NCBI GenBank assembly: GCA_965205265.1
Contig: CBDBGH010000003.1
Span: forward strand, 896,001 to 960,000
Source: Alphaproteobacteria bacterium
Lineage (GTDB): Bacteria > Pseudomonadota > Alphaproteobacteria > Bin95
Length of the DNA: 64,000 nucleotides
Direction of reading: 5' to 3'
The notes below the pieces were generated by a model that ran no database searches, had not been told where the DNA came from, and worked only from the letters and a program-made list of their open reading frames with translations. This document shows, one piece after another, positions 27,080-37,833 of this stretch. A program made the translations under genes and the position numbers. Positions within the stretch are counted from its first letter, which is position 1; each line of letters starts with the position of its first letter.

Positions 27080-28259
27080 TATCCTGATCGAGAAGTTTAT
27101 TAGAATAAGATTATCGGTTTTGATGGAGGGCTGACCGGTGGGGAGAGCAGCGGTCGCGATTACTTTGTCGGCAGCAGAACGACGAGAGTTGGAGGGTTTG
27201 GCGCGGCGTCGGAAGACGGCGCAGGGACTGGCGCGTCGGGCTCGGATTGTCCTGGCTGCTGCTGAGGGTCTGGAGAACAAGGCGATAGTTGCGCGCTTGG
27301 GAGCGGATGCGAATACGGTCGGCAAATGGCGGCGGCGTTTTGCCGAGCGCGGGCTTGACGGGCTCTATGACGAGCCGCGCCCGGGCGCTCCGCGCAAGAT
27401 CGGTGACGAGGAGGTTGCGGAGGTCATTGCCCGCACCCTGGAAGAAACACCCCCCGACGGCACGCATTGGAGCCTGCGCTCGATGGCGCGCGCTGCAGGC
27501 TATGCGCCCTCGACGATCCATCGCATCTGGCAGGCTTTCGGCCTGCAGCCGCATCGCTCGGAGACGTTCAAGCTGTCGTCGGACCCACTGTTTGTGGAGA
27601 AGGTGCGGGACATTGTCGGCCTCTATCTCGACCCGCCCGAGCGCGCGCTGGTGCTCTGCGTCGATGAGAAGAGCCAGATCCAAGCTCTGGACCGCTCCCG
27701 CCCGCTGCTTCCCATGCGGCCGGGTCAGGTCGAGCGGCGTACTCATGACTACACGCGCCATGGCACCACCACGCTGTTCGCGGCGCTGGACATCGCCACC
27801 GGCCGGGTCATCGGCCAGTGCTTGCCGCGCCACCGCAGCCGGGAGTTCCTCAAGTTCCTGCGCACGCTCGAAGCCCAGGTCCCCGGCGAACTCGACGTCC
27901 ATCTGGTGATGGACAACTACGCAACCCACAAGACGCCCGCCGTCCGGCGTTGGCTGGCCCGGCATCCCCGCTGGCATGTCCACTTCACGCCCACCGGCGC
28001 CTCCTGGCTCAACCAGGTCGAGCGCTTCTTCGCACTCTTGACCGAGAAACAGCTCAGGCGCGGGGTTCATCGCTCGCCCCAGGAACTCGAGCAGGCCATC
28101 CGGAACTACATCGACACCGTCAACGCCGACCCGCGACCCTTCCGCTGGACCAAATCCGCCGACGACATCCTTGCCACCATCAAGCGCTTCTGTCTGCGGA
28201 CGCTGGAAACTGCCGAACGCCAGATGAAAATCATCAAAACTTCAGAATCAGGACACTAG
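27076..28259 (+). mobile_element. IS630-family element 2 (single ORF)
   Basis: terminal inverted repeats TAGTATCCTGATCGAGAAGTTT / TAGTGTCCTGATTCTGAAGTTT (reverse complement of right end). Confidence 0.93.
27138..28259 (+). CDS. IS630 transposase
   Basis: [40 protein letters not shown]; TAG stop lies in the terminal CTAG. Confidence 0.95.
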
Positions 28260-29313
28260 AGCAGATTCGTTTCATTTGGGTTCATATCCGCATGCAGTGA
28301 AGAAGCTTCGGGCGTCCTGTGGAGTGACAGCATCGATGGCGTCGCGGATCGCATCCCAGAGCGTATGGACGGAGCGTGCTGCGGCCTTTTTCAGGAGAGC
28401 CTTGATTTTGGAGAAGGCCATCTCGATGGGGTTGAAGTCGGGGCTGTAGGGCGGCAGGAACAGGATGCCGGCGCCTGTGGCCTCGATAGCTTCTCGGATG
28501 GCGATGGGCTTGTGGGCCGGCAGATTGTCGAGGATGACGGTGTCGCCTGGCCTCAGGGTCGGGGCCAGGACCTGTTCGACATAGGCAAGGAAGGCTGCCC
28601 CGGTCATCGCCCCATCGATGGTCATGGGGGCGAGGATGCCGTCGAGCGTGAGGCCGGCGACCAAAGTGGTGGTCTTCCAGTGACCATGGGGGACGGGAGC
28701 GCGGCAACGCTCGCCCCTGGGAGCCCGGCCATACATGCGGGCCATCTTGGTCGAGGTCCCGCTTTCGTCGATGAAGATCAGGCGCTCGGGGTCGAGCCCG
28801 GGCTGGTCTTCGAACCAGGCCTGACGCCGGCGTGCGACGTCCGGTCGGTCCTGCTCGGCAGCGTGGGCCGTCTTTTTTTGCGCGTGATGCCGCGACGCTT
28901 GAAGAACCCATGCACCACGCTGGGCGGCGGCCGGTAGCCGACCGCCTCCTCAAGCCTGGCCGCGATCTCCTGGAGGGTCAGGTCGGGCTCCACCTCAACC
29001 CACCCCATGATCAGATCGCCGTGACCCTCAATGCGCCCTGGACGGCTACCGCCGCGTGGCTTCGGCGAGAGGTCGCCTGTCAGGCGCGATTGGCTCACCC
29101 AGCGGATCGCAGACGACACCCCGACGCCAAAACGCGCCGCAGCCTGCCGACGCGACATCCCGGACTCAACCGCTGCAACCACGCGCCGACGAAGATCAAC
29201 AGAAAGAGACTGCGCCATGCGAGCTGGCCTCCTTCACCAGCCCCCATCGTGAATCACATAATCCGCCAATTGGGAATCCCTCAACGATTCAATCGCCCGC
29301 GAATTCGCTCTAG
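28256..29313 (-). mobile_element. IS630-family element 3 (split transposase)
   Basis: CTAGAGC...GCTCTAG ends; orfA/orfB related to, but distinct from, element 1. Confidence 0.92.
28272..29218 (-). CDS. IS630 transposase, orfA+orfB joined by -1 frameshift
   Basis: [13 protein letters not shown]; A7G run at 28872-28879; [18 protein letters not shown]. Confidence 0.9.
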
Positions 29314-29820
29314 ATTGAAGGGGCGGAGGCGTCATCCGGAGCCGCCTGCCCTTTCGCTCTGGCGCCGGCGCGGAAAAAGCCCTGAGAAGCGGACGGGGCA
29401 AGTGCGTCCTGCGTCCTGCGTCCGGCTCGCGCGCGCGGGCGCACCCGGGCAATCAGGCGCGCGATTCGCGCCGCCGCGAAACGCGCGCCCACGAGCGCGG
29501 GCGCAGGCGCGCAGGATACGCGCGAATAAGGGTCCGCTGCTCGGGGAGACCGGCGGCGGAAAGAACGGAACGAAGAAGGATCGGAAGGAAGAACCCATGC
29601 CGAAGACGCAGAGGCGGGAAACCGGGATGGAATATCCGGAGCGCCTTCCGGGAGCGATGCTTCCATGCCGGAAGCGACGGCAGGATATGCGCCGCTCGCA
29701 TGCGGACCATGACATTCCATGACACCTCGTCGGGGGGCTGCGCATCCGTTGCAGGCGAGAGTGCGTTTCCCCGCGCAGGGGAAGGCGCTTAGACTGGTGA
29801 AAGACAGGAGGGTTCGATCG

Positions 29821-30903
29821 ATGGGATACCCCGATGCGCCGGCGCCGATCCGCGCCGACATTCTGGCGGCCCATGCCCGCGCCTGGGCCTGGATCGCCGC
29901 TCCGGGCAATTGGCTGACGGGAGCGGAGCGCGTCGCCATCGCCGCCGAGACGCGCCATGCGCTGGACTGCCGGCTATGCGCCGCGCGCAAGCAGGCGCTC
30001 TCGCCCGAGACGGTCGCCGGCGAGCATGACGGGCCGGGCGTTCTCGAGCCGCCGATGGTGGAAATCGTCCACCGCATCGTCACCGACCCCGCACGCCTGA
30101 CGCGCCGCTGGTTCGAGGCGCGGCGGGCCGAGGGCGTCGAGGTCACGCGCTATGTGGAGACGGTGGGCGTGACGGCGGTGACGGTCTCGCTCGACACCTT
30201 CGCCCGCTCTATGGGTCTGCCGCCGCGCCGCCTGCCGGAGCCGGAACCGGGAGAGCCGTCGGGCTACCGCCCGGCCTCGGCGCGCATGGAGGAGGCGTGG
30301 GTCCCGCTGATCGTGCCGGGCGAGGAAACAGGGCCCGAGGCCGACCTCTATTCCGGCACGAGAGGCGCCTACATCCTAATGGCGCTGACCCTTGTGCCGC
30401 AGGCGAAGCGGGCCTTCTTCGACCTTGTGGAGACGCAATATCTGCCAAGCCGCTGGATGCAGGCGTTCGATGTCGAGCACCGCGCCATCAGCCATGCGCA
30501 GATCGAGTTCCTGGCAGCGAGGATTTCCGCGCTCAACCAGTGCGTTTACTGAACCACCAGCCATGCGCTGCTGCTCCGTGAGAGCGGCCGGACAACAGGC
30601 GACAGTTACGATCTGGACGCAATCGTGAGCGGCGGCGGCGGCGGGGTCGCCGCCGGCGAGGAATTGGCGGCCTTCGCCGAGGCGGTCGCCGGGGAGGGCG
30701 ACATGGCCGCGGCGATTTCGGCGCTGCGCCGCGCGGTCGGCGATGCCGGCTGGGTGGACGCGGCCGGCGTGGCCGCGACCTTCAACGCCATCGACCGCGT
30801 GGCGGACGCGACCGGCATACCGCTCGAACCGAAGAAAGCGGCAGTGTCGGCCGATTTCCGCGGCGAACTCGATATCGACGCCTGGGCCGAGGCGCGCGGA
30901 TAA
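29821..30903 (+). CDS. AhpD-like alkylhydroperoxidase-related selenoprotein (in-frame TGA at 30550-30552 read as Sec; 360 aa)
   Basis: AGGAGG SD; N-terminal CRLC; ISALNQCVY-TGA-TTSHALLLRES continues open in frame to TAA 30903; downstream hairpin. Confidence 0.85.
30550..30588 (+). promoter_or_regulatory. putative bacterial SECIS element
   Basis: stem GCTGCTC(30570-76)/GAGCGGC(30582-88), loop CGTGA with GU near its 5' side, 24 nt from UGA. Confidence 0.75.
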
Positions 30904-30914
30904 GGAGGAGTCCC

Positions 30915-32285
30915 ATGATCGAACGCAAGCACGAGGACGAATTCGTCGTCGTCTCCAACGGGATGCTGGGATACGGCTTCCGCGAGGAGTCGCTCCGGGA
31001 TGCGGTGGAGGCCGGCGTGGACCTGATCGCCTGCGACGCGGGCTCCAGCGATCCGGGGCCCTACTATCTCGGCACCGGCAAGCCGTTCGTGGGCGATGCG
31101 ATGATCCTGCGCGACCTGCGCCTGCTGGTGAAGGCGGGCGCGGATGCGGGCGTGCCGCTGATCATCGGGTCGGCCGGCGGGGCGGGCGGCGACGGGCAGG
31201 TGGACCATCTGCTCGCGCTGCTCGGCCGGGTGATGGAGGAGCTCGGGCTCGACCGTAAGGTTGCCGTGCTGCGCTCCGAACTCGACCGGGGAACGGTGCG
31301 CGAGGCGGTGGAAGAAGGCCGGGTGCGCCTGTTCGAGACCGGGGCGGCGCTGACCGTCGAGGATGTCGATGCGGCCGCGCATATCGTGGCGCAGATCGGC
31401 CCGGAATCCTACTTCCGCGCGCTCGCCGAGGCGCCTGACATCCTCGTAGCGGGCCGCGCCTGGGACGTGTCCAACATCGCCGCGCTGCCGTTGATGCAGG
31501 GCCGGGACCGCGGCCTCGCGCTGCATATGGGCAAGATCCTCGAATGCGGCAGCCTGGCCGCGCGTCCGACCGGCGGCGGGGACCTCATTCTGGGGCGTCT
31601 GCGCGACGACCACTTCATCGTCGAGCCGCCGCATCCGGACAAGGCCTGCACCGAGGCTTCCGTCTCGGCGCACACCTTCTACGAGAAGTCGGACCCGGTG
31701 ATGCTGGCGGGGCCGGGCGGGTCGGTCGATCTGCGGCGGACCCGGTTCGAGCAGATCGACCCGCGCCGGGTACGCGTCTCCGGCAGCGCCTTCCGCGAGG
31801 CCGAGCGCTACACGGTCAAGCTGGAGGGCGCGCGGCTTGCCGGGCACCGGGCGCTGACCGTCGGCGGCGCGCGCGATCCGGCCTTCATCCGCTCCATCGA
31901 CGCGATCCAGGAGGCCGTCCGCGAGAAGATCCGCGAGACCCAGGCGGGGTTCATCGACCCCTCGCAATACAGCATCACCTTCCACCGCTACGGCCTGGAC
32001 GGCGTGATGGGCGCCTGGGAGCCGAACCGGCAGGCCGCGCACGAGATCGGCATTCTGATCGACGTGGTGGCCGAGACGCCGGAGATCGCCGAGGCGGTCT
32101 GCGGGCTTGCGCGCTCGACCATCCTGCATGTGCCGTTCGAGGGCAGGCGCGCCACGGCGGGCAATATCGCCTTCCCGTTCTCGCCGGCGGAGATTCCGGC
32201 AGGGCCGGTCTATGAGTTCAACATCTACCACCTGATGGAGATCGACGAGCCGGAGACATTCGGGCGGCTGGAATGGCTGCAGTGA
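30915..32285 (+). CDS. AtuA/DUF1446 family protein
   Basis: GMLGYGF, DAGSSDPGPYYLG, GSAGGAG, HMGKILECG, AHTFYEK.DP, TAGNIAFPFSP. Confidence 0.85.
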   Translation: MIERKHEDEFVVVSNGMLGYGFREESLRDAVEAGVDLIACDAGSSDPGPYYLGTGKPFVGDAMILRDLRLLVKAGADAGVPLIIGSAGGAGGDGQVDHLLALLGRVMEELGLDRKVAVLRSELDRGTVREAVEEGRVRLFETGAALTVEDVDAAAHIVAQIGPESYFRALAEAPDILVAGRAWDVSNIAALPLMQGRDRGLALHMGKILECGSLAARPTGGGDLILGRLRDDHFIVEPPHPDKACTEASVSAHTFYEKSDPVMLAGPGGSVDLRRTRFEQIDPRRVRVSGSAFREAERYTVKLEGARLAGHRALTVGGARDPAFIRSIDAIQEAVREKIRETQAGFIDPSQYSITFHRYGLDGVMGAWEPNRQAAHEIGILIDVVAETPEIAEAVCGLARSTILHVPFEGRRATAGNIAFPFSPAEIPAGPVYEFNIYHLMEIDEPETFGRLEWLQ

Positions 32286-32596
32286 GGACGCTGGGCGAGG
32301 TCGCGGAGGTCGTCCGGTCGAAGAATGCCGGGCCTTTCATCGTGACCTTCGACATTCTGTTCGAGACGGAGGAGGCCTTCGAGGCGGTGCGCGCCGCCGG
32401 GCTGTTGAGCCGGCAGGCCGTCTGCGGGCTCTACGGCGTTTCCGACAACGAATTGCTGGGCTTCGACTTCTATCCCTTCGCGCGGGCGGTCAAATTCTCG
32501 CTCAGGCGTCCCGTCGGCTCCGGCGGTCCGCGCGATGCGGATGTCTATGGCGCGCAGCAGCACGCCCCCCTGCTCGACCTCGCCGTCCTGCCCTGA
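32273..32596 (+). CDS. DUF4387 family protein
   Basis: RSKNAGPF..TFD, D.YGAQQHAPL; overlaps AtuA-like stop. Confidence 0.85.
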   Translation: MAAVRTLGEVAEVVRSKNAGPFIVTFDILFETEEAFEAVRAAGLLSRQAVCGLYGVSDNELLGFDFYPFARAVKFSLRRPVGSGGPRDADVYGAQQHAPLLDLAVLP

Positions 32597-35814: not shown

Positions 35815-35955
35815 GCGTCCCCGGCTTCGTAGAAAACCGCGCTGGGCCGGTCAAGCGTCCCGGCAGCGGGGCTGCGGTTGAATTGGAGTCTTGGCGCGGC
35901 GTATCGTCGATCCGACCGTCGCTTCGGCGTCACCCGACTGGGACAGGGAAAAGAG

Positions 35956-36558
35956 ATGAAGGTGTATTTCGCCCCCGGCTCGCGTGCGGTTCGCACAGTC
36001 TGGCTCCTGGAGGAAATCGGCAAGACGTACGACCTGGTGCGGTTCACGCTCGGCCAGAAGGAGATGCGCGGCCCCGAATACACCAGGATCAATCCGAACG
36101 GCCGCGTGCCGACCCTGGTGGACGGCGACACCACTGTCACGGAAAGCACGGCCATCGCGCAGTATCTGGGCGCAAAATACGCGCCGGAACTGACCCCCGG
36201 CCCGGACGCGGCGAATTTCGCAACCTACCTGCAATGGCTCCACTATGCGGAAGGCATGATCATGCCGCCGATCAACAACTATGTGGTCGAGACGATCCTG
36301 CTTCCGCCGGAGCGTCGAAACGATGAAATCGCTGCGCGCTCGTTAAAGCTGCTGAACCGGACGCTCGGCGCCGCCGAGGCGCATATGGAGGGGCGGGATT
36401 TCCTCGCAGGCGACTTTACCGTCGCAGATACGATTACCGGTCATGCCGTCATCATGTCCCGTCGTCTCGGCGCCGATTTCAGTGCGTGTCCGAACCTTGC
36501 CGCCTATGCCGACCGGCTCGAAGCGCGGAAGGCGTTCAAGGCTGCGGACTCGGCTTGA
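35956..36558 (+). CDS. glutathione S-transferase family protein
   Basis: SRA.R..WLLEE, INPNGRVPTL, ES.AI..YL, G.FT.AD. Confidence 0.93.
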   Translation: MKVYFAPGSRAVRTVWLLEEIGKTYDLVRFTLGQKEMRGPEYTRINPNGRVPTLVDGDTTVTESTAIAQYLGAKYAPELTPGPDAANFATYLQWLHYAEGMIMPPINNYVVETILLPPERRNDEIAARSLKLLNRTLGAAEAHMEGRDFLAGDFTVADTITGHAVIMSRRLGADFSACPNLAAYADRLEARKAFKAADSA

Positions 36559-36618: not shown

Positions 36619-37833
36619 TCACCCGGGCCCGGCCCACCAGTCCCGGGGCCGCAGCCGCCTGGCCCGGCCGGACCGGTCGTCGAGCCAGAGTGCCAGCCGG
36701 CGCAGCGGTGACAATGCGAGGCGGAGCCAGAACCGGTTGGCCCGGCGGCGGAAATCCCGGTTGAACGGGCATACCCTGAGGCAGATTGCGCAGTCGGAAG
36801 CCAGCTTCGCCCAATATCCGAAGCACTTCTCCGCATCCGAGGTCCATTTCACCACGCCCTGGATGGCGGACCGGTTCGGGCGGTCCGCGTTCGGCGGGCC
36901 ATAGGGCAGGGCATTCGCGGGGCAGGCATCCGCACAGCGCGTACAGATGGAACAGAACTCTGCAACGCCCAGCCTGCGCGGGGCGTCATGAGCGAGCGGC
37001 AGGTCCGTGAATATCTTGGAGAAGCGCAGGCGCGGGCCCGTCTCCGGAGTTATGACAAGCTGGTTGCGCGCATATTCGCCGAGACCGGCCTTGAGTGCAT
37101 AGGGAATGGCGAGCGCCGTGTCGTTCATCGAGGCGACCGCATTGTAGCCAAGTGCCCTGATATAGGCCGCAAGCTGCATGACGATCGCTGCCTCATGGCT
37201 GTATTCCCGCCCGGTCGCGGCCCCGGCAAGCGCGGAAGGGTAGGTCGCCACAAGCCCCTCATCCATCTCGTGGCCGAGCACGACGACATGCTCCAGGCCC
37301 TCGGGCAGGCCGACGGGAGCTTCGGTGAAGTCCCGCACATCCACCCGCGACTCATAGGTCCAGCGTTCGTCGTATTCCGTGATGCCGCATAAGCTGGCGC
37401 CGAAGAACCGGGCGACCTTCTTGATCTCGGCCGCCATGGCGTTCCGGTCCTCGACGGCGACCTTTTCGACAACGACAGGCGTGTCGTCGGAGATCGCCGC
37501 CTGGAATCCCTCGCGCCGGCCCTGTTCTATATGACGGTTGGTTATCAGGTCGGAAATCAGCCAGGAGGCATTGCGGAGGGCGAAATCCCTCTGGTTGAAG
37601 CCGTCGCCCCGGCGTGCGGTGAAATCCGCCCGGTAGGAATGGAAGAAGGCGTCCGACTCCTTCGTGCGCACCCGCTCGTCCCAGAAGGCGCGGGTGAAAA
37701 CATCGTTTATCTGCCGGAAAGGCGTGAAGTCCGCCGTCGTCTCAATTCCCGCCGCCACATCGCTTTCGGCGTAGCGCCGCCGCCAGCGCGCGCGGCGCTC
37801 TTCGAGGCTTTCCTCGTTCCCGGGCCAACTCAT
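36619..37833 (-). CDS. reductive dehalogenase-like cobalamin/2x[4Fe-4S] protein
   Basis: IKK.ARFFGA.L.GI, AGLGEY.RN.LVITPE.GPR.R, FCSICTRCADACP, C-x10-CAICLRVCP; no TAT signal. Confidence 0.8.
   Translation of the reverse strand: MSWPGNEESLEERRARWRRRYAESDVAAGIETTADFTPFRQINDVFTRAFWDERVRTKESDAFFHSYRADFTARRGDGFNQRDFALRNASWLISDLITNRHIEQGRREGFQAAISDDTPVVVEKVAVEDRNAMAAEIKKVARFFGASLCGITEYDERWTYESRVDVRDFTEAPVGLPEGLEHVVVLGHEMDEGLVATYPSALAGAATGREYSHEAAIVMQLAAYIRALGYNAVASMNDTALAIPYALKAGLGEYARNQLVITPETGPRLRFSKIFTDLPLAHDAPRRLGVAEFCSICTRCADACPANALPYGPPNADRPNRSAIQGVVKWTSDAEKCFGYWAKLASDCAICLRVCPFNRDFRRRANRFWLRLALSPLRRLALWLDDRSGRARRLRPRDWWAGPG

What the first reader, a model, noticed from the sequence alone, without database searches (positions are those of the whole stretch)
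29821..30903. Hidden CxxC/CxxU AhpD-like selenoprotein encoded across an in-frame UGA
Seen: the ORF ends in ...ISALNQC-V-Y-TGA, and the same frame stays open for 116 more codons (TTSHALLLRESG...ELAAFAEAV...DAAGVAATFNAIDRVADATGIPLE) to TAA 30903. The track splits this into two ORFs. Known: AhpD/CMD proteins carry NxCxYC...H, so the TGA sits at the redox Cys position, and the downstream segment supplies the missing C-terminal helices. There is a second CxxC (CRLC) in the N-terminal half. Inference: a 360-aa tandem AhpD-fold selenoenzyme, which implies selA/B/C/D elsewhere in the genome.
Basis: partly seen in the sequence, partly recalled or inferred. Interest (0 to 1): 0.88.

Follow-up and report, generated by a model that had tools for sequence, protein, structure and literature searches.

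The report
Known AhpD-related selenoprotein, correctly spotted
The in-frame TGA is a real selenocysteine codon in a 360-residue, two-domain AhpD-like redox protein, but the family was first reported as a selenoprotein in 2005 and has its own curated model, so this gene is an ordinary member.

Summary
Window 29821-30903 (+) is one reading frame with a single in-frame TGA at 30550-30552, in the context C-V-Y-TGA-T-T-S-H.

Read through, the 360-aa product matches NCBIfam NF041238, 'AhpD_rel_CFYUT, alkylhydroperoxidase-related (seleno)protein'. It scores 457.7 bits against a cut-off of 175 and covers the whole profile.

- **TGA conserved.** It sits at the same column in all 30 related genome loci and all 80 metagenome loci examined. 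One full-length Cys homolog has Cys there.
- **Hairpin.** A hairpin at 30570-30588 follows the TGA. Its stem codons are almost frozen at synonymous sites across 82 distinct sequences.
- **Sec machinery.** The genome holds selA, selB, tRNA-Sec and a fused Ndh-SelD. It also holds a second TGA-bearing paralog.
- **Fold.** Predicted structures show two AhpD-like helical domains, and the best whole-chain match is Sestrin2. The C-terminal domain carries the AhpD proton-relay set E229/C241/Y243/U244/H248. The N-terminal domain carries an invariant C50-x-x-C53.

A 2026 review equates NF041238 with 'hypothetical protein 1' of the 2005 Sargasso Sea selenoproteome. What remains open is its substrate and the role of the N-terminal CxxC.

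The parts
29806..29811 (+). Shine-Dalgarno-like AGGAGG, 9 nt before the ATG
   Evidence: Read directly from the sequence.
29821..30903 (+). Selenoprotein gene of 360 aa with Sec at codon 244; a member of NCBIfam NF041238 (AhpD_rel_CFYUT)
   Evidence: 457.7 bits against a cut-off of 175, profile positions 1-356 of 357.
29968..29979 (+). Codons for the N-terminal C50-R-L-C53 motif. It is invariant in the family, together with H69 and H84.
   Evidence: invariant columns.
30505..30564 (+). AhpD-type proton-relay block: E229 (30505-30507), C241 (30541-30543), Y243 (30547-30549), U244 and H248 (30562-30564)
   Evidence: All five positions are invariant in alignment A1. The spacing is the same as Glu36/Cys48/Tyr50/Cys51/His55 of PA0269 (PMC3141380).
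30550..30552 (+). In-frame TGA, read as selenocysteine 244
30570..30588 (+). Putative bacterial SECIS hairpin. The stem is 30570-30576 paired with 30582-30588, and the loop is CGUGA at 30577-30581. The stem starts 17 nt after the UGA and the loop 24 nt after it.
   Evidence: fold; conservation across 82 distinct sequences.
30915..32285 (+). AtuA-family (PF07287) gene, which starts 11 nt after the selenoprotein stop codon
   Evidence: It is conserved downstream only in the close orthologs, 11 of 110 loci.
32273..32596 (+). DUF4387 gene, overlapping the end of the AtuA-like gene by 13 nt

Best explanation
Window 29821-30903 encodes one 360-residue selenoprotein of the curated family NF041238 ('AhpD-related protein', the 'hypothetical protein 1' of the 2005 Sargasso Sea selenoproteome).

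Translation (inferred from sequence and machinery, not shown experimentally): when the ribosome reaches UGA 30550-30552, SelB carrying Sec-tRNA(Sec) is recruited by the hairpin at 30570-30588. Selenocysteine is then inserted at position 244 instead of termination.

Protein (from predicted structures and alignments): it has two AhpD/CMD-like all-helical domains joined by a Pro-rich linker, arranged like the two halves of Sestrin2. The C-terminal domain holds the AhpD proton-relay constellation Glu229, Cys241, Tyr243, Sec244 and His248.

Mechanism (inferred): Sec244 is the attacking nucleophile and forms a selenenylsulfide with Cys241 during thiol/selenol-dependent reduction of a peroxide, or of an oxidised partner protein. 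The invariant N-domain C50-x-x-C53 (with H69 and H84) is a second centre, either redox or metal-binding, of unknown role. The physiological substrate is unknown.
For: **Family.** NF041238 matches at E 2.9e-137 with 457.7 bits against a cut-off of 175, over profile positions 1-356 of 357. Both halves match it separately.

**TGA conserved.**
- 54 of 55 matches over the cut-off in 61 related genomes have exactly one TGA.
- The motif C-x-Y-TGA-T-T-S-H is present in 21 of 21 loci L021-L041.
- TGA is present in 80 of 80 metagenome loci.
- All 82 distinct TGA+45 segments start with TGA.

**Cys homolog.** P0039 (367 aa, 44% identity over 353 columns) is contiguous and has Cys at the U column.

**Public gene calls stop at the TGA.** 119 of 120 listed homologs are 233-277 aa and cover 65-68% of the query.

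**TGA is otherwise a stop here.** 5 of 8 Pfam-supported genes in the window end in TGA.

**Hairpin.** Across the 82 distinct sequences:
- stem codons are frozen: Leu CTC in 82 of 82, Arg CGT in 80 of 82, Ser AGY in 82 of 82;
- the Ser codon outside the hairpin uses AGC, AGT, TCG, TCA and TCC, and the His and Thr codons outside it also vary;
- 94.3% of 574 cells pair, against 32-55% when the partner is slid;
- the loop is CGUGN in 80 of 82, so it keeps G. The 2005 paper names a small G-containing apical loop as the bacterial SECIS feature (passages).

**Sec machinery in G000.** selA (531.5 bits), the adjacent selB (435.2 bits), selD (277.1 bits) and tRNA-Sec (72.6 bits; ARAGORN calls SeC with anticodon tca).

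**Reads.** No difference at 30550-30552 is listed in any of 4 runs. Contigs from X4, X5 and the RNA-library run X15 bridge the TGA.

**Fold and active site.**
- The whole-chain model has pLDDT 87.3 and pTM 0.90.
- Sestrin2 matches at Z 16.0; AhpD/CMD chains match the C-domain at Z 12.4-8.4.
- The N-domain model has pLDDT 93.9 and all of its top 8 matches are AhpD/CMD fold.
- A profile search hits solved AhpD 6k40 at E 2.7e-16, with CVYC aligned.
- E229, C241, Y243, U244 and H248 are invariant. Their spacing is that of the published relay residues (PMC3141380 passages).

[quoted passage not shown] The 2005 paper describes hypothetical protein 1 with a CXXU motif and a predicted SECIS (PMC1088965 passages).
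Against: - No experiment here shows selenium in the protein.
- Folded alone, the hairpin is not unusually stable: z -0.34, and 65 of 200 shuffles fold at least as well.
- True covariation is thin. Only 2 of 7 pairs have changes on both sides (3 cells), and the column-shuffle control is barely beaten for percentage paired (71 of 500 shuffles as high). The RNA case therefore rests mainly on synonymous-site invariance, and the encoded residues L-L-R-x-S-G are themselves conserved.
- The outermost pair 30570-30588 forms in only 54 of 82 sequences.
- No Rfam family matched the region.
- Pfam CMD scores 21.0, below its gathering score of 23.
- The N-domain fold matches are modest (best Z 8.3), within the range the tool warns can be a common helical arrangement.
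- The mapping onto M. tuberculosis AhpD residue numbers rests on a weak match (E 0.091) whose alignment was not printed.
- Gene neighbours are not conserved across the family, so they give no functional clue.
Confidence: 0.94

Rival explanations
1. The TGA is a true stop. Either the gene is a nonsense-mutated pseudogene or the TGA is a sequencing error for TGC or TGT, and only a 243-aa fragment or nothing useful is made.
For: ORF callers end the gene here, and 119 of 120 listed public homologs are deposited as proteins of about 245 aa. One relative's copy (G025:C18) really is decayed: it has TAA at this column and a broken N-terminus.
Against: - The same TGA is kept in 54 of 55 genome matches and in 80 of 80 metagenome loci.
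- The downstream 116 codons stay open and conserved; they match the family profile at E 3.2e-35 on their own.
- Contigs from several runs bridge the site, and no change is listed there.
- A pseudogene would not keep frame, sequence and a downstream hairpin across proteins that are only 45-60% identical.
Confidence: 0.01
2. There are two separate genes. One is an N-terminal 243-aa protein ending at the TGA. The other is an independently initiated C-terminal protein, for example from GTG 30625 (92 aa).
For: The mechanical ORF list shows 30625..30903 as an ORF with a GTG start.
Against: - Conservation runs without a break from the TGA onward (T-T-S-H-A-x-L-L-R), well upstream of 30625, in every homolog.
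- The catalytic His248 lies between the TGA and 30625.
- The Cys homolog is one chain.
- Solved single-domain AhpD proteins span both sides of the motif.
Confidence: 0.01
3. The UGA is read through, but by something other than Sec. Candidates are near-cognate Trp or Cys insertion, or Cys loaded on tRNA-Sec, giving a CxxC or CxxW protein.
For: A Cys form of the family exists (P0039), so Cys at this position is compatible with function.
Against: - The genome keeps a full Sec pathway: selA, selB, an Ndh-SelD fusion and tRNA-Sec.
- The genome carries two TGA-bearing copies of this family.
- A hairpin with nucleotide-level constraint sits at the distance expected for SelB recruitment.
- TGA is the ordinary stop of neighbouring genes, 5 of 8.
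Confidence: 0.03

Closest known systems
NCBIfam NF041238, AhpD_rel_CFYUT: alkylhydroperoxidase-related (seleno)protein, equated with 'hypothetical protein 1' of Zhang, Fomenko & Gladyshev 2005 (PMC1088965)
   Same: The product is a full-length member: 457.7 bits against a cut-off of 175, over profile positions 1-356 of 357. It has the same C-x-Y-U-T motif and the same CxxU redox motif. A SECIS-like hairpin follows the TGA, as the 2005 paper reports for this family.
   Different: Nothing of substance. The middle residue of the motif is Val here (C-V-Y-U-T), whereas the model's name spells C-F-Y-U-T. Relatives use V, L, F, I, M or T at that position.
Single-domain AhpD / 'peroxidase-related' proteins (TIGR01926 and COG2128-type; solved examples 6k40, 2oyo, 3c1l, 2pfx) and M. 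tuberculosis AhpD (1gu9)
   Same: The C-terminal half, about residues 185-340, is homologous to them: 6k40 at E 2.7e-16 and 2oyo at 2.1e-12. The fold also matches: 2pfx at Z 12.2 and 1gu9 at Z 8.4. The Glu...Cys-x-Tyr/His-Cys...His relay has identical spacing.
   Different: - Sec replaces the second Cys.
- The protein is twice as long, with an extra N-terminal AhpD-like domain that lacks the Glu/His relay and has its own invariant CxxC, H69 and H84.
- TIGR01926 scores 36.4 bits against a cut-off of 81.8, and TIGR00777 scores 24.5 against 191.95, so it is not a member of those families.
- No AhpC partner was examined.
AhpD-like 1, AhpD-like 2 and CMD-domain selenoproteins of marine metagenomes (Zhang & Gladyshev 2005 and 2008)
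   Same: They have the CxxU motif in an AhpD/CMD fold, are bacterial, and were predicted by the same logic of a Sec/Cys pair plus a SECIS.
   Different: The papers and the 2026 review table list them as separate families: COG2128/TIGR01926 and PF02627 against NF041238. They are single-domain proteins with many Cys homologs, for example 299 Sec against 902 Cys for AhpD-like 1. Here Cys forms were rare among what was examined: 1 of 120 listed homologs.
Human Sestrin2 (5cuf)
   Same: It is the best whole-chain structural match: Z 16.0, rmsd 3.7 over 232 residues, spanning model residues 7-334. Sestrin2 is described as twofold pseudo-symmetric; I saw only the start of the abstract of PMC4674687 in the search listing.
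   Different: Identity in the structural alignment is 11%, and no sequence-level relationship was tested. Sestrin2 is eukaryotic and has no Sec. This is an architectural resemblance, not family membership.

Membership tests
NCBIfam NF041238 (AhpD_rel_CFYUT) | Whole-protein score above the curated cut-off (175 bits) with end-to-end profile coverage | tested here: met
   457.7 bits, E 2.9e-137, profile positions 1-356 of 357. The genome search gave 449 bits on the raw DNA.
NCBIfam NF041238 (AhpD_rel_CFYUT) | C-x-Y-U-T motif with the U encoded by an in-frame TGA | tested here: met
   C241-V-Y-TGA-T245. The same column holds TGA in 30 of 30 genome loci and 80 of 80 metagenome loci.
Bacterial selenoprotein (SelB-dependent Sec decoding) | In-frame UGA aligned with Cys in a homolog, with conservation on both sides | tested here: met
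   P0039 has Cys at the column and is 44% identical over 353 columns spanning both sides.
Bacterial selenoprotein (SelB-dependent Sec decoding) | SECIS stem-loop just downstream of the UGA, with a small apical loop containing G | tested here: met
   There is a 6-7 bp stem and a CGUGN loop, the loop starting 24 nt after the UGA. Of 574 cells, 94.3% pair, and stem codons are frozen at synonymous sites. Caveats: the single-sequence z-score is -0.34, and there are few compensatory changes.
Bacterial selenoprotein (SelB-dependent Sec decoding) | selA, selB, selC (tRNA-Sec) and selD in the same genome | tested here: met
   All four score over their cut-offs. ARAGORN calls tRNA-SeC with anticodon tca.
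Bacterial selenoprotein (SelB-dependent Sec decoding) | Selenium actually incorporated at the UGA position | not testable with these tools
   This needs 75Se labelling or mass spectrometry.
AhpD/CMD superfamily (Pfam PF02627) | Pfam CMD domain at or above the gathering score | tested here: not met
   21.0 bits against a gathering score of 23, for residues 218-259 only. Homology to solved AhpD-family chains is nevertheless clear from the profile search (6k40, E 2.7e-16).
AhpD/CMD superfamily (Pfam PF02627) | All-helical AhpD fold | tested here: met
   The C-domain matches 6ohi, 2pfx, 3lvy and 2gmy at Z 12.4-11.8 and 1gu9 at Z 8.4. For the N-domain alone, the top 8 hits are all AhpD/CMD fold at Z 8.3-5.1, and Foldseek's top hits are all AhpD family at E 0.03-0.16. 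The N-domain values are modest.
AhpD (alkylhydroperoxidase D, TIGR00777) | Family model score above the cut-off | tested here: not met
   24.5 bits against a cut-off of 191.95. This is not a canonical AhpD.
AhpD (alkylhydroperoxidase D, TIGR00777) | Proton-relay residues Glu, Cys, His/Tyr, Cys and His with the canonical spacing | tested here: met
   E229, C241, Y243, U244 and H248 are invariant. The spacings of 12, 2, 1 and 4 equal Glu36/Cys48/Tyr50/Cys51/His55 of PA0269 and Glu118/Cys130/His132/Cys133/His137 of M. tuberculosis AhpD (PMC3141380 passages).
AhpD (alkylhydroperoxidase D, TIGR00777) | Works with AhpC and lipoamide; peroxidase activity | not testable with these tools
   No AhpC gene lies beside it in the window. 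A genome-wide search for AhpC was not made.
Sestrin | Sequence-level homology to sestrins | not tested
   There is only a structural match: Z 16.0 and 11% identity.

The most novel reading that the evidence does not exclude
The family could be an obligate-selenium, self-contained two-centre enzyme. In this reading the invariant N-domain C50-x-x-C53/H69/H84 site recycles the C241/U244 selenenylsulfide within one Sestrin-like chain. Its real chemistry would then be something Cys does poorly, such as reductive dehalogenation, rather than AhpC recycling. That would make it a bacterial, AhpD-fold analogue of the deiodinase selenoenzymes.

The leads are weak:
- Sec is present at the column in 80 of 80 metagenome loci and in 54 of 55 genome matches, with only 1 Cys form among 120 listed homologs.
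- The Bmp8 debrominase is among the tied best C-domain structural matches: Z 12.4, against 12.2 and 11.8 for uncharacterised CMD proteins.
- Close relatives occur in a run labelled sponge metagenome.

What Bmp8 does beyond its PDB entry title is recalled, not read. A search for papers on it found none.
Probability: 0.06. Interest if true: 0.6.

Novelty: already known. Interest (0 to 1): 0.15.

Why it matters
The target, however, is a family catalogued since 2005 and carried by NCBI's annotation models.

There is a practical point. Nearly all public gene calls for this family are truncated at the TGA: 119 of 120 listed are about 245-aa 'hypothetical proteins'. Any catalogue built from them loses the catalytic His and the C-terminal helices.

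Three things remain open:
- the substrate;
- why the family so rarely uses Cys;
- what the invariant N-terminal CxxC/His/His site does in a Sestrin-like two-domain AhpD scaffold.

Tried and rejected
**Rfam scan.** I scanned window 30400-30750 at E up to 10. It gave only three weak, unrelated hits (rsmX at E 0.15, ncS16 at 3.1, gut-2 at 3.8) and no SECIS family. This says little, because a model for this bacterial SECIS may not exist in Rfam.

**Single-sequence fold.** Folding 30550-30610 gave z -0.34. Stability alone does not mark the hairpin.

**Covariation test.** The stem columns are too invariant for the shuffle control to discriminate. I lean on synonymous-site invariance instead.

**Phylum-wide survey.** None of 400 other genomes drawn evenly from the phylum had a match at E <= 1e-40. 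The family was found only in the window's own family (f1, 36 of 36 at E <= 0.001) and in two other sampled lineages over the cut-off (G039, G042). This is 'not found in those searched', not absence.

**Gene neighbourhood as a functional clue.**
- AtuA-like plus DUF4387 follow only the close orthologs of the window copy, 11 of 110 loci.
- Hydantoinase B follows the other paralog group, 14 of 110 loci.
- The remaining loci matched none of the four query proteins.
I rejected this as a family-wide link.

**Foldseek against PDB.** It gave no match at E <= 0.001 for either model. The weaker rows were nevertheless consistently AhpD-family chains.

**Habitat.** Several runs labelled sponge metagenome hold 0.24-0.29 of the sampled words, but I did not lay them, so I draw no habitat conclusion from them. 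Parts of the stretch without cover in X4 and X15 mean nothing.

**Papers.**
- A search for 'Bmp8' with 'debrominase' found no paper.
- A search for 'AhpD_rel_CFYUT' or 'NF041238' found one paper.

**Steps not run or not available.**
- I considered complex prediction, the search of protein representatives and the protein-atlas search unnecessary and did not run them.
- Paper supplements were closed and not consulted. The supplements of the 2005, 2008 and 2026 selenoproteome papers may list further members or Cys homologs.
Full report
**The observation**

The sequence is as described. The table-11 ORF 29719..30552 ends in ...ISALNQCVY followed by TGA at 30550-30552. Reading that TGA as a residue keeps the frame open for 116 more codons, to TAA at 30901-30903. 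From ATG 29821 this gives 360 residues with the recoded position at 244. The mechanical ORF list splits the region into 29719..30552 and 30625..30903. ATG 29821 is the likely start: AGGAGG lies 9 nt upstream, and the 24 closest public homologs are all 243 aa long. The second motif, C50-R-L-C53, is present.

**What it is**

The read-through product matches NCBIfam NF041238, 'AhpD_rel_CFYUT, alkylhydroperoxidase-related (seleno)protein'. NCBI classes this model as an equivalog. The match is E 2.9e-137 with 457.7 bits against a curated cut-off of 175, over profile positions 1-356 of 357. The part before the TGA (310.3 bits) and the part after it (122 bits) each match the corresponding part of the same profile. 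Pfam sees only a sub-threshold CMD domain, at 21.0 bits against 23.

[quoted passage not shown] The 2005 Sargasso Sea paper describes hypothetical protein 1 as a new selenoprotein family with a conserved CXXU motif. It also describes a stem-loop downstream of the TGA that resembles bacterial SECIS elements (PMC1088965, passages). AhpD-like and CMD-domain CxxU selenoproteins are listed there, and in the 2008 GOS paper, as further and separate families.

**Is the TGA real and conserved?**

- In 61 related genomes, 55 matches exceeded the family cut-off. Of these, 54 carry exactly one TGA and no other stop, and one carries a TAA.
- That one (G025:C18) is a decayed copy, with TAA at the Sec column, a shortened helix before it and a frameshifted N-terminus. 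The same genome also has an intact TGA copy.
- In the 21 loci fetched from that search, the TGA sits in C-x-Y-TGA-T-T-S-H every time.
- The same holds in the 9 loci from named MAG contigs and in 80 of 80 metagenome loci (79, and L126).
- One of the two peptide patterns used to fetch the metagenome loci assumed Cys at this column. No Cys form came back even so.
- Among the 120 listed public protein homologs, 119 are 233-277 aa and cover 65-68% of the query, meaning they were called only up to the TGA. One, P0039 (367 aa), is full length. It is 44% identical across both sides and has Cys at the column, NQCFYCTSAH.
- TGA is an ordinary stop in this genome: 5 of 8 Pfam-supported genes in the window end in TGA.
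- No difference at 30550-30552 is listed for any of four public runs. Contigs of X4 (30501-30654, 0 other letters), X5 (30414-30752) and the RNA-library run X15 (30517-30888) bridge the codon. X1 is near-identical and may be the source, and 13 rows of differences were not shown.

**Sec machinery**

The window's genome holds the full pathway:
- selA (531.5 bits) and, immediately downstream of it, selB (435.2 bits);
- selD (277.1 bits);
- a tRNA-Sec (72.6 bits; ARAGORN calls SeC with anticodon tca).

The selD reading frame is 738 aa, with a pyridine-nucleotide disulfide oxidoreductase domain in front of the AIRS domains. This is the Ndh-SelD fusion type mentioned in the 2008 paper. The genome has a second NF041238 paralog, also with one TGA, at C3:2960532-2961584.

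**The SECIS**

A hairpin lies at 30570-30588, with the stem at 30570-30576 paired to 30582-30588 and a CGUGA loop. On its own it is not unusually stable: z is -0.34, and 65 of 200 shuffles fold at least as well.

The evidence is comparative, from 82 distinct TGA+45 segments of proteins that share 45-60% identity with the query:
- Stem codons are nearly frozen: Leu CTC in 82 of 82, Arg CGT in 80 of 82, Ser AGC or AGT in 82 of 82, and the third base of the variable codon is always G.
- Codons outside the hairpin vary freely. The Ser at codon 3 uses AGC, AGT, TCG, TCA and TCC; His uses CAT 56 times and CAC 26 times; Thr uses ACC, ACG and ACT.
- 94.3% of 574 cells pair, against 32-55% with the partner slid by 1-3 columns.
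- Pair changes are mostly one-sided (U-G to U-A, C-G to U-G, G-C to G-U). Only 3 cells have changes on both sides.
- The shuffle control is uninformative because the columns hardly vary.
- The loop keeps CGUGN in 80 of 82 sequences. A small G-containing apical loop is the feature the 2005 paper names.
- In the read lay-out, the bin 30536-30579 gathers contigs from paralogs and other organisms that match nowhere else on the stretch. This again shows nucleotide-level conservation around the UGA and hairpin.

I regard the SECIS as well supported but not proven. The encoded peptide L-L-R-x-S-G is itself conserved.

**The protein**

A model built on a 15-sequence alignment has pLDDT 87.3 and pTM 0.90. 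Aligned against 48,161 representative chains, its best match is human Sestrin2, at Z 16.0 and rmsd 3.7 over 232 residues spanning model residues 7-334. Next come AhpD/CMD-fold chains on the C-terminal half: Bmp8 debrominase at 12.4, 2pfx at 12.2, 3lvy and 2gmy at 11.8, and M. tuberculosis AhpD at 8.4.

The N-terminal 146 residues were modelled alone on a 22-sequence alignment, giving pLDDT 93.9. Their top eight matches are only AhpD/CMD-fold chains, at Z 8.3 to 5.1, followed by unrelated helical proteins at 4.2 or below. Foldseek's top rows are likewise all AhpD family, though at E 0.03-0.16. 'Tandem AhpD fold' is therefore supported, firmly for the C-domain and moderately for the N-domain.

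By sequence, only the C-half is recognisably AhpD-like: profile positions 188-339 match 6k40 at E 2.7e-16, with CVYC aligned to the C-V-Y-U columns.

E229, C241, Y243, U244 and H248 are invariant. Their spacing is that of the published proton relay, Glu36/Cys48/Tyr50/Cys51/His55 in PA0269 and Glu118/Cys130/His132/Cys133/His137 in M. tuberculosis AhpD (PMC3141380, passages). The weak 1gu9 match pairs profile positions 225-262 with chain residues 112-149 (E 0.091, alignment not printed). If that match is ungapped, U244 falls on Cys133; this mapping is an inference.

The N-domain has its own invariant set (C50, C53, H69, H84, R37, R45, D89, R92) but lacks the Glu/His relay.

**Mechanism**

Shown here:
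- the family membership;
- the conserved TGA paired with Cys in a homolog;
- the Sec machinery in the genome;
- the conserved hairpin;
- the predicted two-domain fold;
- the conserved relay residues.

Inferred:
- SelB-dependent insertion of Sec at position 244;
- Sec244 as the nucleophile, forming a selenenylsulfide with Cys241 in a thiol-dependent reduction;
- a second redox or metal centre at C50/C53/H69/H84.

That the equivalent Cys133 is the attacking residue in AhpD is recalled, not read here. The substrate is unknown.

**Gene context**

The context does not help. AtuA-like (30915-32285) and DUF4387 (32273-32596) genes follow tightly, but only in the close orthologs, 11 of 110 loci. The other paralog group is followed by hydantoinase B, in 14 of 110 loci.

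**Distribution**

The family was found in 36 of 36 sampled genomes of the window's own family at E <= 0.001. Two other sampled lineages had matches over the cut-off. None of 400 other genomes drawn evenly across the phylum had a match at E <= 1e-40. More than 569 metagenome stretches encode relatives.

**Verdict**

This is a correct and careful observation of an already known selenoprotein family. Novelty: already known. Interest is low, apart from the open questions of substrate, the near-exclusive use of Sec, and the N-terminal CxxC centre.

Noticed in passing
G000:C3:4509861-4512077 (L010:319-2535, +): The genome's SelD is a 738-aa fusion of a pyridine-nucleotide disulfide oxidoreductase (Pyr_redox_2) with the AIRS and AIRS_C domains. 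This is the 'Ndh-SelD' fusion type mentioned in the 2008 GOS selenoproteome paper.
   Followed up: partly
G000:C3:2960532-2961584 (-), L021:1483-2634: This is a second NF041238 paralog, also with one TGA (458.7 bits) and about 52% identical to the window copy. Hydantoinase B/oxoprolinase lies downstream and a Cpn60-family gene upstream. Most genomes of the genus carry both paralogs.
   Followed up: partly
L131 (G025:C18:248100-249250): This is a decayed copy of the family in a relative. It has TAA instead of TGA at the Sec column, a shortened helix before the motif and a frameshifted, truncated N-terminus. The same genome keeps an intact TGA copy on another contig.
   Followed up: yes
window 27138-29218: Two IS630-type transposase genes sit directly upstream of the selenoprotein gene. 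One is intact on the + strand (27138-28259; HTH plus DDE_3). The other is on the - strand and split into an HTH ORF (28778-29218) and a DDE_3 ORF (28272-28745), either by a frameshift or by breakage.
   Followed up: no
window 36619-37833 (-): This 404-aa ORF has a 4Fe-4S double-cluster domain (E 1.4e-09) and a weak reductive-dehalogenase-subunit match (E 8e-05, 22.4 bits against a cut-off of 24.3). A GST gene lies next to it at 35878-36558. It could be a QueG-like or RdhA-like protein; I did not examine it.
   Followed up: no
window 30536-30579: In the laid runs this bin has about ten times the summed contig depth of its neighbours in X4 and X15 (107 against 6-12). Contigs of paralogs and of other organisms match only the UGA and hairpin segment, and run on into unlike sequence on both sides (tables 2 and 7).
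   Followed up: partly
window 29700-31000: Run X15, labelled a sponge-metagenome metatranscriptomic library, holds contigs at 90-99% identity covering 23 of 30 bins. One 372-nt contig crosses the TGA. This is consistent with, but does not prove, transcription of a close relative's gene in that habitat.
   Followed up: partly
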